64,000 bases of DNA from Lytechinus pictus. Its lineage: Eukaryota. The translations under genes were made by a program, and so were the position numbers. The stretch lies in NCBI RefSeq assembly GCF_037042905.1, contig NC_087251.1, positions 48,486,001-48,550,000 on the forward strand. The letters are read 5' to 3'. Shown here in pieces: positions 43,177-64,000 of this stretch; position 1 is the first letter of the stretch; every line of letters begins with the position of its first letter. Below the pieces are notes generated by a model, which was not told the DNA's origin, did no database searches, and saw only the letters and a list, made by a program, of their open reading frames with translations.

Positions 43177-44265
43177 ATTAAGTCTAACCAATCTTCGGCC
43201 ACAAATTTTCAATTACATTTTGTGGAAACGAAAGGAACGTGTTGACACTGAAATGAAAAATCATGTTTACTGCAGCAGTGGTAGATGTGGTTGCCTTAAT
43301 GAACGGTTTCCCCCAGGGTTAGAGGCCTACTATTCTATGGCCGACCATCAAAATGGGAATTGCAGTGCCCCTGTCAATATTGCAGAAGTGTGAATAAATG
43401 TTTAAAGTTATATTATTATTTGTACCCGATGTCGGCTTCCTCCTGAATACACACCAACGAAACCGACTCAATGTCTTTCATCGGTCTGGAGTCGGTTTCG
43501 TTTGTGCTTTGACATCGGGAAGAGAGAGGGGGTTGGGCGTGGGCTAGATGTCTTTTCCCTAATACACAAAGAGTACACGATATCATATCATACAAGCTGT
43601 TGCTGCCGGGTCGTTGCCATGGTTGTCCATACTTCTTGATAGCGAGAGATGATATAGCGTACAGGATTTAGCCCAGAGATCTATGAGTTTAATACTTATC
43701 TGAATTGGTATTGTTGATAAGCTGGGCCACACATTTTTCAAGCAAGATATTAGTTCAATAATGATGAAAGTCAGAATGAGCCCTCTTCTTAAAATCAATT
43801 AGGAATAATCTTTGGATTTGTCGGATGGAGCTAAACCCTACAATATACTTTGTTATATAGCGTAATGACTTTCCGTTGCGGCTGTTGATCTTGTTTTGAT
43901 ATGTACAACTATTCCACAGTTGTGTTAAGCAAACATCGGCCAATGTTTTTCGACCCCAAGTTGTCTAATGGACTAAAACATCGAATAGGATATGGATATC
44001 CTCTCTTTCATATAGCAGACTGATTAAATGTATACAGGTTTAATATGTTTTTGTCTCTCCCGACCTTGAATTTATTCATCCCGCTTGCGACCGAACGTTG
44101 GTGATAGTAATCCTATCCCCCGACTCCATTCCTTTCGCGCTTGGAGAATGCACTCGTAATCTATTATGATAATGACTGACTGGTGTATGGTCGCGTTGAA
44201 TTATTTGCCGGTGGCTATCGTCACGGTCCTATATATATATGTATTTGTATATATATATATATATA

Positions 44266-44366
44266 TAAATGTGTAAAGTTATACATGTACAACAGCTTTT
44301 GGCAACTCTTTTTTATTTAAATATTGTAAAGAAATGGATGAAGAGAACAAAGGTAGGCGTAGCTTA
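44266..44366 (-). mobile_element. Inverted 3' fragment of the tRNA-containing repeat
   Basis: Reverse complement of TAAGCTACGCCTACC...TGTACATGTATAACTTTACACATTTA, adjacent to (TA)n. Confidence 0.85.
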
Positions 44367-45275: not shown

Positions 45276-45600
45276 TTGTCATTGTTCAAAACCCACCTAC
45301 ACCCGACAAAGGAAATTATAATTGGTATGGTGTCGAAAATCTGTCTATCTGACGGTCAATCGGATCGGGGTCGCCCTAGCCACTAACCCGTCTCTGTGGT
45401 CTAGTGGTTAAGGCTCCGGCGTTCAAAGCTGGGGGCCCGGGTTCGATTCCCGGCAGAGACATTTTTTCGGCATCACCAATTTTTCCAAAGGGCAGATAGC
45501 TCTTGGGAACCTTGATTTAAGCTACGCCTACCATTGTTCTCTTCATCCATTTCTTTCACAAAATATTTAAATAAAAGAGTTGCCAAAGCTGTTGTACATA
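45276..45600 (+). mobile_element. tRNA-containing repeat, near-full copy
   Basis: Near-identical to 7877-8200. Ends next to (CA)n(TA)n. Confidence 0.9.
45390..45461 (+). tRNA. tRNA-like gene, anticodon TCA, all stems paired
   Basis: 7-bp acceptor GTCTCTG/CAGAGAC, D stem GTCT/AGGC, anticodon stem CCGGC/GCTGG with loop GTTCAAA, T arm CCGGG-TTCGATT-CCCGG, discriminator A, then T6. Confidence 0.65.
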
Positions 45601-45608
45601 TATGATTT

Positions 45609-45649
<41 letters not shown>

Positions 45650-48254: not shown

Positions 48255-48457
48255 TATATGACATAGTGGGGTTTCGTAATTGATGTATTTTGCTCATCAT
48301 TTTGTCAGATCATTATTTTCAAGTGAACAAGTTTGATGAAAAAGCTTCCAAAGTCGCTCCTTCACCATTTTTAAGAGGTAGATAAAATGTAATATCTCTT
48401 AACATAATAGTTTTGTTCAATTTGACTTATTTTCTTCTCTCTTTTTCTCTTTTACAG

Positions 48458-49380
48458 GTTTTGGTATGACCTCTCCGTCCACGGAATGGGGCCGAGCAAT
48501 GCTGATCGTGTATGGGTTACCCGGATGTGCCGCTTGTATCCTCTTCTTCAACATATTCCTCGAGCGCCTTATCACGTTCCTGGCCTACGTCATGAAGCAG
48601 TGCCACGAGCGGAGGATACGCAAGATCAAGGACCAGCACCAGAACGGCCAGGCTAAAAATGGCGGACGGCGACCTTCGGAACAGTCGGACGACGACCTGG
48701 AAAACTGGAAGCCTTCAGTGTACTGGGTCTTACTATACCTGGGGATATCAGCCACCACCATTGCCTGCATCGCCTCCGCAGTTTATACCCATGCAGAGAC
48801 AGGATGGGATTTTCTGGACAGTTTCTATTTCTGTTTTGTCGCTTTCAGCACGATTGGTTTCGGGGACTATGTGACAAGTCAGGATTATACGTACGACCAT
48901 CAGTACTTGTATCGTTTTGGTAATTTTATCTTCCTTACAGCGGGAGTGTGTTGTATCTATTCTCTCTATAATGTAGTATCTATCGTGATTAAACAGTTCT
49001 TGAATTGGGCCATCAAGAAACTTGACTGTAGGTGTTGCGTCCGGAAGCGACCGCGGCCGCGGCGGAACGCAATCACCCCAGGTCATCTCCAGAGACAAAT
49101 GAACTCTGCCGGGAAACGCCACAATGGCCCGGGTAATGTGGAGGTCACTGATTATGACAGCGAGACGGACGGACGTCGGATGTCTGATGAGATGATCAGT
49201 ATGAAGGATTTCTTGGCAGCAAATAAAGTGTCATTAGCCGTCATGCAAAAGCAGCTTTACGAAACATCCCAGCACCGACACCATTCCAGCAAGAATGGTG
49301 TGGGACAAGGACTTAGCCAGGGAGTAGGGGGCCTCGCCATGCTCAATAACAAACTACAAGAGACAGACAGGCGTGATTGA
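48458..49380 (+). CDS. KCNK13: Terminal coding exon of a THIK-subfamily two-pore-domain K+ channel (KCNK13/KCNK12-like)
   Basis: Polypyrimidine tract and TTTACAG acceptor end at 48457. The exon starts in phase 1 inside the first pore motif (g|GT TTT GGT ATG = G-F-G-M-T-S-P). It has TM2 (LIVYGLPGCAACILFFNIFLER), WKPSVYWV, second pore loop FCFVAFSTIGFGD, TM4 (GVCCIYSLYNVVSIVIKQ) and the THIK-type tail DSETDGRRMSDEMISMKDFLAANKVSLAVMQKQL...GVGGLAMLNNKLQET. An invertebrate gene may be co-orthologous to KCNK12 and KCNK13. Confidence 0.95.
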
Positions 49381-54376: not shown

Positions 54377-55207
54377 TATATATATATATATATATATATA
54401 AAACGATATAATTACTTCTTCATTGTTTGACATAGCAGAAATCTGATTTGTCAAAATCGACATATTTCTAAGATATTTGTTTAGATACCATCTTTTCTTA
54501 AAAAAAAACATTATATTTATCTAACTCGATTTTAATAAATGCTAGTTACCTTATCTACTTTCTGTTACTAAATGGAGAGCATCTCTCCCATTTTTGCTAT
54601 ATTTTCGATTGGTGGTATGAATTGCATAATATTGGTTTAATTGCATCTTATTATACGTCAGTGTGTGTATGTATAGATACCATAAGTATATCATCATGAT
54701 ATAGATATTTACATAAAATAATTTGAAAGCCTGCATACAATCTTATATTTCCATTCTCTACTCGCTTTGACGAGCTAGAACTTGTTATTATGAATAAATT
54801 GCTCTGTCATTTTTCAATGATATCTGCGTTGCTGGAATTTGTTTTCTTTGTTATTGTGTTTATTCATCTTTTTCTAGCTTAATCTGTGCATATATGTAAA
54901 CATTCATTCAAACTGTATCTTCCTAAGAATATTTCTGTCTTTATGACTCAAAAGGCCATTCAGCAGGCGTTACCCATGTTTAATTTTGATTGCCGTTATC
55001 TCTTCTACATTTCTCGTATAACTCATGCCAATAATTTTCATACCATCTGTAATTTCAAGTTCTCCCATGGGCATATGTATATATGTCACGTGCTTCAGCG
55101 CAAAAGATTTGTTTTGGGGGGACATCTACAGTAAAAAATTAAAAGATATAAACCTCTGCATGACGCCCATATATATGTGTATAATATATATATATATATA
55201 TATATCC

Positions 55208-55531
55208 AAAAACCCACCTTCACCCGACAAAGGAAATTATAATTGGTATTGTGTCGAAATTCTGTCTATCTGACGGTCAATCGGATCGGGGTCGCCCGAG
55301 CCACTAACCCGTCTCTGTGGTCTAGTGGTTAAGGCACCGGCGTTCAAAGCTGGGGGCCCGGGTTCGATTCCCGGCAGAGACATTTTTTCGGCATCACCAA
55401 TTTTTCCAAAGGGTAGATAGCTCTGGGGAACCTTGATTTAAGCTACGCCTACCATTGTTCTCTTCATTCATTTCTTTACAATATTTAAAATAAAAGAGTT
55501 GCCAAAGCTGTTGTACATGTATAACTTCACA

Positions 55532-55537
<6 letters not shown>
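55208..55537 (+). mobile_element. tRNA-containing repeat, near-full copy between (TA)n tracts
   Basis: Near-identical to the other copies. (TA)n on both sides. Confidence 0.9.
55311..55382 (+). tRNA. tRNA-like gene, anticodon TCA, all stems paired
   Basis: GTCTCTGTGGTCTAGTGGTTAAGGCACCGGCGTTCAAAGCTGGGGGCCCGGGTTCGATTCCCGGCAGAGACA followed by T6. Good A and B boxes. Confidence 0.65.
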
Positions 55538-55572
<35 letters not shown>

Positions 55573-63500: not shown

Positions 63501-63629
63501 AAATTATACTCAATGAGCTGCTTAAAACCTCAGACCCATATTCCCTCCCAGCCCATCATGGCGTCGACAAATCGAGGACAAAGAACGATTTGATGGAAAA
63601 AGTTCAGTATGTATACATACATATATATA

Positions 63630-63749
63630 TATTGTGAAAGAAATGGATGAAGAGAATAATGGTAGGCGTAGCTTAAATCAAGGTTCCCCAGAGCTATTTA
63701 CCCTTTTGGAAAAATTAGCAATGCCGAAATAATGTCTCTGCCGGGAATC
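63630..63749 (-). mobile_element. Inverted partial copy of the tRNA-containing repeat
   Basis: Reverse complement of the T arm through the 3' body. It directly abuts the + copy. Confidence 0.85.
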
Positions 63750-64000
63750 AAAACCCACCTACACCCGACAAAGGAAATTATAATTGGTTTAGTGTCGAAA
63801 ATCTGTCTATCTGACGGTCAATCGGATCGGGGTCGCCCTAGCCACTAACCCGTCTCTGTGGTCTAGTGGTTAAGGCTCCGGCGTTCAAAACTGGGGGCCC
63901 GTGTTCGATTCCCGGCAGATACATTTTTTCGGCATTGCCAATTTTTCCAAAGGGCAGATAGCTCTGGGGAACCTTGATTTAGGCTATGCCTACCATTGTT
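63750..64000 (+). mobile_element. tRNA-containing repeat, runs off the window end
   Basis: Same sequence as the other copies. Confidence 0.9.
63852..63923 (+). pseudogene. Degenerate copy of the TCA-anticodon tRNA-like gene
   Basis: Mismatches in the anticodon stem (ACTGG), T stem (CCGTG) and acceptor (CAGATAC). TCA retained. Confidence 0.6.

What the first reader, a model, noticed from the sequence alone, without database searches (positions are those of the whole stretch)
55311..55382. Mobile repeat carries an intact UGA-reading (anticodon TCA) tRNA that is not tRNA-Sec
Seen: a 72-nt cloverleaf with all four stems paired (here and at 45390-45461), A and B boxes, and a T6 terminator right after the discriminator. 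The anticodon loop is GT-TCA-AA, and TCA is kept in all five copies that span it (7618, 8018, 45423, 55344, 63885). Established: UCA pairs with the opal stop. tRNA-Sec has a long variable arm and extended acceptor/T helix, whereas this has a 4-nt variable loop, 7/5 stems and a Gly/Glu-like T arm. SINE tRNA heads sit at the 5' end, are usually structurally decayed and read through into the body. Here the tRNA is internal, with ~100 bp of conserved leader, and terminates itself. Inference: a high-copy element that disperses an opal-suppressor-like tRNA or tRNA mimic. Caveats: G32 is atypical, and shared TCA may only reflect recent amplification.
Basis: partly seen in the sequence, partly recalled or inferred. 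Interest (0 to 1): 0.85.

Follow-up and report, generated by a model that had tools for sequence, protein, structure and literature searches.

The report
tRNA-bearing tandem repeat in sea urchin
The UGA-reading "tRNA" is real as sequence, but it is one module of a 406-base repeat copied thousands of times in a sea-urchin genome, and its copies decay like junk DNA rather than like a working suppressor tRNA.

Summary
Observation confirmed. ARAGORN and Rfam find four full 72-nt cloverleaves with anticodon TCA and one 5'-truncated copy, each followed by T6. A canonical tRNA-Sec lies elsewhere in the genome.

The context was misread. The "leader" is the rest of a 406-bp unit. This unit has at least 2,452 genomic matches. 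It forms tandem arrays, one of about 44 units at 99% identity. It also forms short, 5'-truncated, partly tandem and partly inverted insertions that end at TA-rich points next to (TA)n.

Individual copies evolve without structural constraint. Stems and loops change equally, no pair shows a change on both sides, and 16 of 27 stem changes break a pair. Variants with TCC, TCT, CCA, ACA or A33 exist, and TCC is enriched in an older subfamily.

RNA-seq shows even coverage of the whole unit on both strands, with no tRNA-sized signal. That library type cannot detect tRNAs.

Best reading: a tRNA-derived module carried by a satellite-like, probably retroposed repeat. It is a new member of a known kind, like the newt PolIII/TAN and Xenopus OAX repeats. 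A sequence look-up of earlier scan notes found no look-alike.

The parts
55311..55382 (+). 72-nt tRNA-like module (unit positions u1-72), anticodon TCA at 55344-55346, all four stems paired
   Evidence: ARAGORN. Rfam RF00005 scores it 60.9 bits with no mispair. It is identical to the family consensus.
55383..55388 (+). T6 run directly after the discriminator base (a Pol III terminator-like signal)
   Evidence: Sequence. The same run follows the other four copies.
55209..55310 (+). It is the last 102 nt (u305-406) of the 406-bp unit, cut on its 5' side by (TA)n.
   Evidence: BLAST against the unit. Upstream conservation continues in other loci.
55389..55541 (+). Body of the unit (u79-231), ending at the recurrent 3' end point u231
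55542..55568 (.). (TA)n run at the 3' end of the copy. A second (TA)n run lies at 55169-55205 on the 5' side.
7617..8214 (+). 1.5 units head to tail: u33-406 (7617-7984), then u1-231 (7985-8214) with the tRNA module at 7985-8056. Flanked by (TA)n at 7551-7617 and about 8206-8341.
45276..45614 (+). Copy spanning u293-406 plus u1-223, with the tRNA module at 45390-45461. It ends in (CA)n(TA)n.
44262..44366 (-). Strongly 5'-truncated copy (u129-231) ending in (TA)n
63622..63756 (-). Inverted, 5'-truncated partial copy (u50-181) abutting the next copy head to head
63748..64000 (+). Copy spanning u303-406 plus u1-149, with the tRNA module at 63852-63923 (three mispairs). Cut by the end of the window.

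Best explanation
The 72-nt cloverleaf is the tRNA-derived module of a 406-bp non-coding repeat unit. Earlier scan notes call this 812-Mb genome sea urchin (Lytechinus-like). In it the unit exists in two forms. One is satellite-like head-to-tail arrays. The other is many short insertions of 0.3 to 3 units.

The short insertions start at almost any unit position. They end at a few TA-rich points followed by (TA)n, and often carry an inverted truncated copy at their 5' side. That polar pattern, plus one clean 13-bp target-site duplication, points to copying primed from the 3' end at (TA)n targets. The most likely route is reverse transcription of array transcripts by a retroelement enzyme. The pattern resembles what is described for Penelope-like elements. 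This step is inferred, and no partner element was found.

The tRNA module descends from a Glu/Gly-type tRNA gene and is a passenger. Its sequence still looks Pol III-competent. However, the TCA anticodon is a feature frozen by recent amplification, not a selected one. Individual copies lose base pairs, U33 and the anticodon at the same rate as flanking DNA changes.

Shown: anatomy, copy number, tandem and inverted organisation, end-point asymmetry, and lack of covariation.
Inferred: the RNA-mediated route and the lack of suppressor function.
For: Copy number and arrays:
- A 36-nt pattern from the anticodon loop to the T arm (up to 3 mismatches) has 1,468 + 984 matches. The reversed control has 0.
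- The array at C2:8866017-8883728 has a 406-bp period, 99% matches and about 44 units. All 14 units in the fetched parts are called tRNA(tca).
- Of the 49 places listed on contig C1, 15 lie 405-419 bp from a neighbour on the same strand.

End points, from 34 blocks in the window and 27 loci:
- 39 of 45 outer 3' ends fall at u170-181, u223 or u231.
- The 21 outer 5' ends fall at 18 different positions.
- A TA run adjoins 32 of 45 3' ends and 12 of 21 5' ends.
- 12 of 34 blocks have an inverted part, so that both outer ends are 3' ends.

Target-site duplication: the L013 insertion is 2.3 units long, has a (TA) tail of about 20 repeats, and is flanked by a 13-bp direct duplication inside a Tc1-like transposase frame.

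Neutral decay, from 59 independent copies chosen only by leader anchors:
- Singleton differences are 31/4087 in the tRNA against 128/13534 elsewhere (p = 0.30).
- Stems differ at 27/2390 and loops at 18/1697 (p = 0.88).
- 16 stem changes break a pair, 11 leave a wobble pair, and none is compensated.
- The formal count on 62 rows (33 distinct) gives 0 pairs changed on both sides. All five measures equal the shuffles.

Anticodon variants:
- 56 of the 59 copies could be read at the anticodon: 54 TCA, 1 CCA, 1 ACA.
- Among 100 flank-anchored copies I counted, by eye, 1 TCT, 2 TCC and 6 with A33. The A33 copies sit in arrays.
- 56 genomic sites match a TCC-type pattern. By eye, 29 belong to this repeat and 27 are real tRNA-Gly-TCC genes.

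Origin: the D arm and the variable-plus-T arm equal those of real tRNA-Glu genes. The T arm and most of the anticodon loop match real tRNA-Gly-TCC genes.

Precedent in print:
- tRNA-like tandem families are listed in PMC10702118 (Background section read).
- Passages of PMC8557442 describe 5' truncation, partial tandems, an adjacent inverted truncated copy, (TA)n insertion bias and TSDs that are hard to see.

Penelope-like elements are present in this genome:
- GIY-YIG hits occur, several as inverted pairs.
- The C-terminal 153 aa of one RT-plus-GIY-YIG frame has at least 150 near-identical genomic matches.
Against: - Total differences from consensus are lower in the tRNA (45/4087 = 1.10%) than in the rest (337/13534 = 2.49%; naive p = 1e-8). 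No tRNA site has a minor allele at 10% or more, against 9 of 253 sites elsewhere (p = 0.22). The cells are not independent, so the test is weak. It still leaves room for constraint on the copies that get amplified.
- The consensus is a flawless cloverleaf that scores like real tRNAs (60.9 against 62.2 and 59.5 bits). Its acceptor and anticodon stems differ from tRNA-Glu yet are fully paired. The ancestor was therefore a structurally sound tRNA, not a decayed SINE head.
- The retroposition step rests on one clear TSD among 80 complete blocks. Otherwise the flank-match distribution equals the shuffled control.
- The repeat unit shows no similarity to 9 sampled Penelope-like loci, and no hammerhead ribozyme was found in the unit.
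- Whether TCC or TCA is ancestral is unresolved. All four combinations of the -11 variant and the anticodon exist. A related SINE head also has TTCAA at that place.
Confidence: 0.7

Rival explanations
1. One reading: the repeat spreads a working opal-suppressor tRNA or a tRNA mimic. The UCA anticodon and cloverleaf would be kept by selection because the RNA is made by Pol III, matured and used on the ribosome or by another tRNA-binding machine.
For: - The consensus is a perfect cloverleaf at 60.9 bits, equal to real tRNAs.
- The A-box region is identical to that of real tRNA-Glu genes, and the B box and T6 are intact.
- TCA is found in 54 of the 56 unbiased copies readable at the anticodon.
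- Among the rows shown for four sequencing runs under three organism labels, none shows another letter at the anticodon (21 further rows were not shown).
- Fewer shared variants occur in the tRNA than in the flanks.
Against: - No covariation: 0 pairs change on both sides and all measures equal the shuffles.
- 16 of 27 stem changes break pairs, and stems and loops change at the same rate.
- Singleton changes are as common as in the flanks (p = 0.30).
- Copies with A33, TCT, TCC, CCA or ACA exist, and A33 copies were themselves amplified.
- G32 is atypical for tRNAs (recalled knowledge).
- Thousands of active UGA suppressor genes would be expected to harm translation termination (inference).
- Another transposon repeatedly sits in the anticodon stem.
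Confidence: 0.04
2. The repeat is the same, but it spreads purely at the DNA level. Breaks in fragile (TA)n microsatellites would be repaired by microhomology-primed copying from arrays or from circular DNA excised from arrays. No reverse transcription would be involved.
For: - The 3' end points are several internal TA-rich sites (u170, u181, u223, u231), not one terminus with a tail. This fits annealing of a (TA)n end.
- (TA)n lies on both sides of many copies.
- Insertions of more than one unit fit rolling copying from a circle.
- No partner retroelement was found.
- Short satellite arrays dispersed by insertion or recombination are described in molluscs (PMC5139131, abstract read).
Against: - The L013 case shows a 13-bp target duplication, 5' truncation and a simple-repeat tail. 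That trio is the classic mark of target-primed reverse transcription (established knowledge).
- The tandem, inverted and (TA)n pattern matches published Penelope-like insertions point by point (PMC8557442).
- RNA-seq reads span tandem junctions, so array transcripts may exist. DNA carry-over is not excluded.
Confidence: 0.2
3. The tRNA module serves the repeat or the chromosome rather than translation. It could act as a Pol III/TFIIIC-binding site that keeps source arrays open or acts as a boundary. It could also act as an RNase P/Z cleavage signal that cuts multimeric array transcripts, the role hammerhead ribozymes play in retrozymes.
For: - Shared, amplified variants are 4-5 times rarer in the tRNA than in the flanks, although the share of variable sites is similar: 32/72 against 41/77, 30/67 and 59/109.
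- The unit has no hammerhead or other Rfam motif.
- Tandem non-autonomous relatives of Penelope-like elements with a cleavage motif are known (bioRxiv 10.64898/2026.07.22.740005, abstract read).
Against: - Insertions contain uncut tRNA modules with both junctions intact.
- Their ends do not fall at the tRNA borders. No 3' end was seen at u72 or u406, and no 5' end at u1 or u73.
- The deficit of common variants is not significant by sites (0/72 against 9/253, p = 0.22).
- The old and young subfamily consensuses differ at 1 of 72 tRNA sites against 4 of 208 flank sites.
Confidence: 0.08

Closest known systems
PolIII/TAN (Hirt) tandem family of the newt Cynops pyrrhogaster, together with Xenopus OAX / satellite I, Rana/polIII and Hy/polIII (as listed in PMC10702118; Background section read)
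   Same: These are tandem repeats of a few hundred bases (about 360 nt in the newt) that contain a tRNA-related segment. The cited 1991 title says the newt family derives from tRNA-Glu, and it can be transcribed in vitro. The unit here is 406 bp, and its tRNA module shares its D and T arms with tRNA-Glu.
   Different: - The host is an echinoderm, not an amphibian.
- The module is a complete, perfectly paired cloverleaf with its own T6 and a UCA anticodon.
- The family also occurs as hundreds of short, polar, (TA)n-associated insertions.
- Transcription by Pol III was not tested here.
Penelope-like elements (Naiad clade) and their non-autonomous derivatives (PMC8557442, passages read). Also animal non-LTR retrozymes (bioRxiv 10.64898/2026.07.22.740005, abstract read).
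   Same: Shared features are high 5' truncation, partial tandems or multicopy head-to-tail insertions, an inverted 5'-truncated copy at the 5' side, insertion bias for (TA)n, and target duplications that are hard to see.
   Different: - The unit encodes no reverse transcriptase or GIY-YIG endonuclease.
- It has no hammerhead ribozyme.
- It shows no sequence similarity to the 9 Penelope-like loci sampled in this genome.
- A tRNA module has not been described for these elements in the passages I read.
tRNA-derived SINEs and SINE-derived satellites (PMC10702118)
   Same: Both have a tRNA-related segment with A and B boxes, a simple-repeat 3' tail, 5'-truncated copies and tandem amplification of the unit. 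A separate dispersed SINE family in this genome has a related head.
   Different: - The tRNA is not at the 5' end of the inserted copies.
- A T6 directly after it would stop a Pol III transcript before the body.
- Copies exceed one unit.
- The SINE heads in this genome fail ARAGORN and Rfam, while this module scores like a real tRNA.
Tandem clusters of real tRNA genes, such as the Arabidopsis Ser/Tyr (SYY) cluster (PMC12308677; search listing only)
   Same: Both have many head-to-tail units, each with an intact tRNA gene. The Arabidopsis cluster is reported as largely silenced.
   Different: The anticodon here matches no sense codon. Copies are dispersed genome-wide and decay without constraint.
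tRNA-Sec and natural or engineered opal suppressor tRNAs
   Same: The anticodon is UCA.
   Different: - The module is 72 nt with a 7/5 acceptor/T helix and a 4-nt variable loop.
- It matches RF00005, not RF01852.
- The genome's own tRNA-Sec is at C2:54020026 and C25:889015.
- There is no evidence of charging or use.

Membership tests
tRNA (Rfam RF00005) | Covariance-model score at or above the 29-bit gathering score, with a cloverleaf of four stems | tested here: met
   The four window copies score 60.9, 58.7, 55.4 and 38.1 bits. Array units score 60.9 bits.
tRNA-Sec (Rfam RF01852) | Long variable arm, extended acceptor/T helix, about 86-90 nt, and a score of at least 47 bits on RF01852 | tested here: not met
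   The module is 72 nt with a 4-nt variable loop, and its best model is RF00005. Real tRNA-Sec genes of 86 nt score 76.9 bits at two other loci.
Functional (selected) suppressor tRNA | Base pairs kept by compensatory change, with anticodon and invariant bases protected from mutation | tested here: not met
   No pair of 21 changes on both sides, and all measures equal the shuffles. 16 of 27 stem changes break a pair. Variants with A33, TCT, TCC, CCA and ACA exist.
Functional (selected) suppressor tRNA | A mature, CCA-tailed, aminoacylated RNA exists and reads UGA | not testable with these tools
   Only standard 150-nt paired RNA-seq reads were available. They show even coverage of the whole unit on both strands, with no pile of read starts or ends.
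Satellite / tandem repeat | Long head-to-tail arrays of a defined monomer | tested here: met
   The period is 406 bp with 99% matches. The C2 array has about 44 units over 17.7 kb.
tRNA-derived SINE | The Pol III head sits at the 5' end, and the transcript runs through the body to the tail | tested here: not met
   Insertions start at 18 different unit positions among 21 outer 5' ends, none at u1. A T6 follows the tRNA directly.
tRNA-derived SINE | The 3' region is shared with a partner LINE | not tested
   No LINE library was available, and DNA search of the genome skips very common words.
Non-autonomous element moved by a Penelope-like element | 5' truncation, partial tandems, an adjacent inverted truncated copy and microsatellite insertion bias (PMC8557442) | tested here: met
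   5' ends are variable while 39 of 45 3' ends recur at a few points. Copies span more than one unit. 12 of 34 blocks have an inverted part. TA runs adjoin 32 of 45 3' ends.
Non-autonomous element moved by a Penelope-like element | Sequence similarity to an autonomous family at the 3' end | tested here: inconclusive
   No similarity to 9 sampled loci. Only a small part of the genome's Penelope-like copies could be fetched.
Retrozyme | A hammerhead ribozyme in each tandem unit | tested here: not met
   An Rfam search at E-value up to 1 on three units finds only the tRNA and sub-threshold tRNA-like hits.

The most novel reading that the evidence does not exclude
The module is not a fossil. Source copies would keep a flawless, Pol III-ready cloverleaf with a UCA anticodon because it is used. 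When arrays are opened, for example in the germ line or early embryo, thousands of genes would yield a tRNA that reads or competes at UGA, giving regulated stop-codon read-through. Alternatively, the tRNA would stand in for the hammerhead of retrozymes in the repeat's own life cycle. The deficit of amplified variants inside the tRNA is the only hint in favour.
Probability: 0.04. Interest if true: 0.9.

Novelty: new member of a known kind. Interest (0 to 1): 0.3.

Why it matters
Automatic tRNA finders will report thousands of high-scoring "SeC/suppressor" genes in this genome, so annotators need to know they belong to a repeat. The family is also a clean, young example of a tRNA-bearing tandem repeat that is satellite and mobile element at once. 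Its polar, (TA)n-linked, tandem and inverted insertions look like those of Penelope-like elements, whose transposition cycle is poorly understood. If the module were expressed, it would be a natural test of how a cell tolerates many UGA-reading tRNA genes. Nothing here shows that it is expressed.

Tried and rejected
- **DNA search of the genome** with the 72-nt sequence found nothing, because very common words are skipped. Patterns were used instead.
- **Leader control pattern.** A first version with a 68-nt gap found only 2 copies, each with a 1-nt insertion. The correct gap is 67 nt.
- **Autonomous element.** The 4.2-kb tandem at C1:2.834-2.852 Mb that holds a diverged copy is a segmental duplication of part of a 7tm_1 receptor gene. 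It has no reverse transcriptase.
- **Partner search.** None of the 9 Penelope-like loci fetched resembles the unit.
- **A link between the UCA tRNA and UGA-containing retroelement genes.** One Penelope-like copy has an in-frame TGA in its endonuclease motif. The other 149 of the 150 scored copies have no stop there, so it is a private mutation.
- **Target-site duplications in general.** Across 80 complete blocks, the longest shared word between flanks has the same distribution as in shuffled pairings, apart from L013.
- **Other RNA motifs in the unit.** None was found.
- **First covariation count (alignment A2).** It showed 7 cells changed on both sides. All came from rows where the tRNA is replaced by (TA)n or an insertion (L044, L054, L091). 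The count was repeated without L044, L045, L054, L089 and L091.
- **Sequencing runs.** No RNA holder was listed.
- **Literature searches** found no description of this family in sea urchins.
- **Earlier scan notes** hold no look-alike sequence.

Full report
**1. The observation**

ARAGORN calls four 72-nt tRNAs with anticodon tca on the + strand of the window, at 7985, 45390, 55311 and 63852. Rfam's tRNA model scores them 55.4, 58.7, 60.9 and 38.1 bits against a gathering score of 29. Mispairs number one, none, none and three respectively. A fifth copy begins inside the anticodon loop at 7617, directly after a (TA)n run.

All five copies keep TCA, and all five are followed by TTTTTT. The T-arm motif occurs 6 times in the window against 0.12 expected. 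Two real tRNA-Glu genes of the same genome score 62.2 and 59.5 bits, so the consensus module is as good a tRNA as the real ones. On its own the strand folds at -30.4 kcal/mol (z = -2.0). The minimum-energy fold forms the acceptor, anticodon and T helices but not the D stem.

**2. It is not tRNA-Sec**

The genome holds two 86-nt loci that score 76.9 bits on the tRNA-Sec model, at C2:54020026 and C25:889015. The repeat module is a 72-nt type-I tRNA.

**3.

The window lies in an 812-Mb assembly of 368 contigs. Earlier notes of this scan call it a sea urchin, Lytechinus-like. I did not test that.

A 36-nt pattern from the anticodon loop to the T arm, with up to 3 mismatches, has 1,468 forward and 984 reverse matches. 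The reversed control has none. Many matches are spaced by 405-419 bp. On contig C2 one run spans 8866017-8883728 with a period of 406 bp and 99% matches, about 44 units. All 14 units in the two fetched ends are called tRNA(tca).

The "leader" is therefore the remainder of a 406-bp unit, laid out as follows:

| Unit positions | Content |
|---|---|
| u1-72 | tRNA module |
| u73-78 | T6 |
| u79 to about u231 | body |
| u232-406 | the stretch that precedes the next tRNA |

Upstream conservation runs on beyond 100 bp wherever the copy is not cut. An Rfam search at E-value up to 1 finds nothing else in the unit.

**4. How the copies lie**

I mapped the unit onto the window and 27 fetched loci, which gave 34 blocks.

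- Blocks are 0.3 to 3 units long.
- Their outer 3' ends recur: 39 of 45 fall at u170-181, u223 or u231, all TA-rich spots. A TA run follows 32 of the 45.
- Their 21 outer 5' ends fall at 18 different positions. A TA run precedes 12 of the 21.
- In 12 of 34 blocks an inverted, truncated copy abuts the 5' side, so both outer ends are 3' ends. Window 63622-63756(-) with 63748-64000(+) is one such case.
- The big array also begins and ends in (TA)n.

One insertion is clean. In L013, 2.3 units plus a (TA) tail of about 20 repeats interrupt a Tc1-like transposase reading frame and are flanked by a 13-bp direct duplication. Among 80 complete blocks it is the only clear duplication. For the rest, the match between flanks is no better than in shuffled pairings. 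That is expected if most copies sit inside pre-existing (TA)n, but it also means the evidence for target duplication is a single case.

**5. Mechanism of spread (inferred)**

The observed features are variable 5' ends, fixed 3' ends with a simple-repeat tail, a variable-length target duplication and adjacent inverted truncated copies. These are marks of copying primed at the target from the 3' end.

The whole set, including partial tandems and (TA)n bias, is described for Penelope-like elements, especially Naiads. That paper also mentions non-autonomous families with multicopy head-to-tail insertions (PMC8557442, passages read). A preprint describes tandem non-autonomous relatives, the retrozymes (abstract read).

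This genome has such elements:
- GIY-YIG hits occur in inverted pairs.
- One frame carries reverse-transcriptase-type motifs (my recognition from the translation, not a family scan) followed by a C-terminal GIY-YIG domain. The C-terminal 153 aa of that frame has at least 150 scored matches at 95-99% identity, in open frames of up to 981 aa.
- (TA)n follows 4 of 7 sampled 3' regions.

Yet none of the 9 loci I could fetch resembles the unit, so no partner is named. A DNA-only route, with microhomology-primed copying at broken (TA)n from arrays or circles, explains the several internal TA-rich end points at least as well. It remains a live rival.

Pol III cannot make the template. The T6 would stop it after 72 nt, and copies include sequence upstream of the tRNA.

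**6. Is the tRNA under selection?**

To avoid choosing copies by their tRNA, I anchored on two leader motifs. That pattern has 653 genomic matches. I fetched one copy from each of 59 separate places on contigs C2 and C3. The 23 places listed on C1 were not used.

| Measure | tRNA | Rest of unit | Test |
|---|---|---|---|
| All differences from consensus | 45/4087 (1.10%) | 337/13534 (2.49%) | naive p = 1e-8 |
| Private (singleton) differences | 31/4087 | 128/13534 | p = 0.30 |
| Variable sites | 32/72 | 41/77, 30/67, 59/109 | not tested |
| Sites with a minor allele of 10% or more | 0/72 | 9/253 | p = 0.22 |

The first test treats inherited variants as independent, so it overstates the contrast. 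The contrast comes from a handful of variants that were amplified in the flanks.

Inside the tRNA, stems (27/2390) and loops (18/1697) change equally (p = 0.88). Sixteen stem changes break a pair, eleven leave a wobble pair, and none is compensated.

I ran the formal count on 62 rows, of which 33 are distinct. The rows were four window copies, 54 of the 59 anchored copies, one old copy and three TCC copies. I dropped L044, L045, L054, L089 and L091, whose tRNA is interrupted or has an indel. The count gives 0 pairs with a change on both sides, and every measure is reached by 390-500 of 500 shuffles. A first count that included the interrupted rows gave 7 spurious cells.

Individual copies therefore decay freely. 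Whether the few copies that seed new ones are constrained cannot be settled.

**7. The anticodon**

- Of the 59 anchored copies, 56 can be read at the anticodon: 54 TCA, 1 CCA, 1 ACA.
- Among 100 listed copies chosen by flanks on both sides (769 matches in all), I counted by eye 58 identical to the consensus over the 63 nt shown. I also counted 1 TCT, 2 TCC and 6 with A at position 33. The A33 copies lie in arrays and so were amplified after the change.
- The matching leader control listed about 20 of 100 identical to the commonest form, again counted by eye.
- A pattern for TCC finds 56 sites. By my reading of the list, 29 belong to this repeat and 27 are real tRNA-Gly-TCC genes, 26 of them clustered at C13:22.08-22.16 Mb.
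- The TCC repeat copies are older. Their median divergence from their own consensus is 5.5% (n = 12) against 1.1% for the anchored set (n = 57). Most of them share variants at -90, -44, -11 and +104.
- With the old-type base at -11 there are 17 copies: 11 TCA, 5 TCC and 1 TCT.

TCC is thus enriched in the old subfamily, which fits a C36-to-A change in a source copy. However, all four combinations exist, and a related SINE head also reads TTCAA there. The order of events is not proven.

**8. Origin**

- The D arm (positions 8-21) and the variable-plus-T arm equal those of the genome's tRNA-Glu genes.
- The acceptor and anticodon stems differ but are fully paired.
- The T arm and six of seven anticodon-loop bases of the TCC form match tRNA-Gly-TCC.
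- A separate dispersed SINE family has a related but degenerate head and a different body. ARAGORN finds no tRNA in 5 of 5 such loci, and Rfam none in the 2 scanned.

**9. RNA**

No listed run that holds the stretch is on record as RNA. Two raw RNA-seq runs under the same species label cover the whole unit on both strands about equally.

| Measure | Result |
|---|---|
| Depth over the tRNA bins in X23, per strand | 199-326 |
| Depth over the body peak in X23, per strand | 374-469 |
| Piles of read starts or ends | none |
| Reads spanning a tandem junction | 267 in X23, 8 in X24 |

These libraries cannot show a mature tRNA, and DNA carry-over is not excluded. Runs under three organism labels hold the family. 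Among the rows shown, none has another letter at the anticodon at 10% or more (21 rows were not shown).

**10. Comparison and verdict**

tRNA-like tandem families are known. PMC10702118 (Background section read) lists the newt PolIII/TAN family (about 360 nt, from tRNA-Glu), Xenopus OAX/satellite I, Rana/polIII and Hy/polIII. This is a further, echinoderm member. It is unusual in three ways: the intactness of its tRNA, its stop-codon anticodon, and its Penelope-like insertion pattern.

My searches found no description of it. I could not consult Repbase or Dfam, where it may already have an entry.

Noticed in passing
L005, L025, L091, L120, L125 (unit positions u28-32). Small insertions at the same spot in L045, L113, L114, L122.: A different transposon, with ends CACAGTGGGCC... 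and ...GGCCCACTGTG, sits repeatedly at the CGGCG of the anticodon stem. In L005 it has a 5-bp duplication. Short extra bases at the same place in other copies look like excision footprints. The ends and the 5-bp duplication recall Transib-type elements (recalled, not tested).
   Followed up: partly
window 8338-8360; flanks of L021 and L029: A Tc1/mariner-like terminal sequence (TA-CAGTGCGTCCCAAAAAAAA) abuts the (TA)n run. So (TA)n tracts in this genome collect several kinds of mobile element.
   Followed up: no
window 1350-3970: A long array of 9- and 12-nt periods (about 170 copies, 84-89% alike) is open in several frames as Thr/Ser/Leu/Val runs. It also shows a very strong negative GC skew (-0.48).
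   Followed up: no
window 48403-49380 (+): A 325-aa open frame contains a TIGFGD pore motif and looks like an exon of a two-pore-domain potassium channel (my recognition; no family search was run).
   Followed up: no
G000 C1-C12 (listing); L097, L099, L103, L107, L108: A dispersed, diverged tRNA-derived SINE family has a head that shares the D and T arms and a TTCAA loop with the repeat's tRNA. Its body is different.
   Followed up: partly
G000:C13:22080297-22158142: A cluster of 26 tRNA-Gly-TCC genes on both strands within about 78 kb.
   Followed up: no
G000 genome-wide; L140 243-2876: A very young, abundant Penelope-like family. At least 150 scored copies are 95-99% identical over the C-terminal 153 aa, with open frames of up to 981 aa. 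Copies often lie as inverted pairs.
   Followed up: partly
L130/L131 (G000:C1:2834000-2851999): A segmental tandem duplication with a 4.2-kb period (about three units). It contains part of a rhodopsin-family receptor gene and one old copy of the repeat.
   Followed up: yes
window 7800-8205 as laid: Two RNA-seq runs of one study and species label differ sharply. X23 carries a set of variants at 45-80% and 267 tandem-junction reads of a 399-bp period. Those variants are at most about 15% in X24, which has 8 such reads. One array variant seems to dominate in one sample, through either expression or copy-number difference.
   Followed up: no
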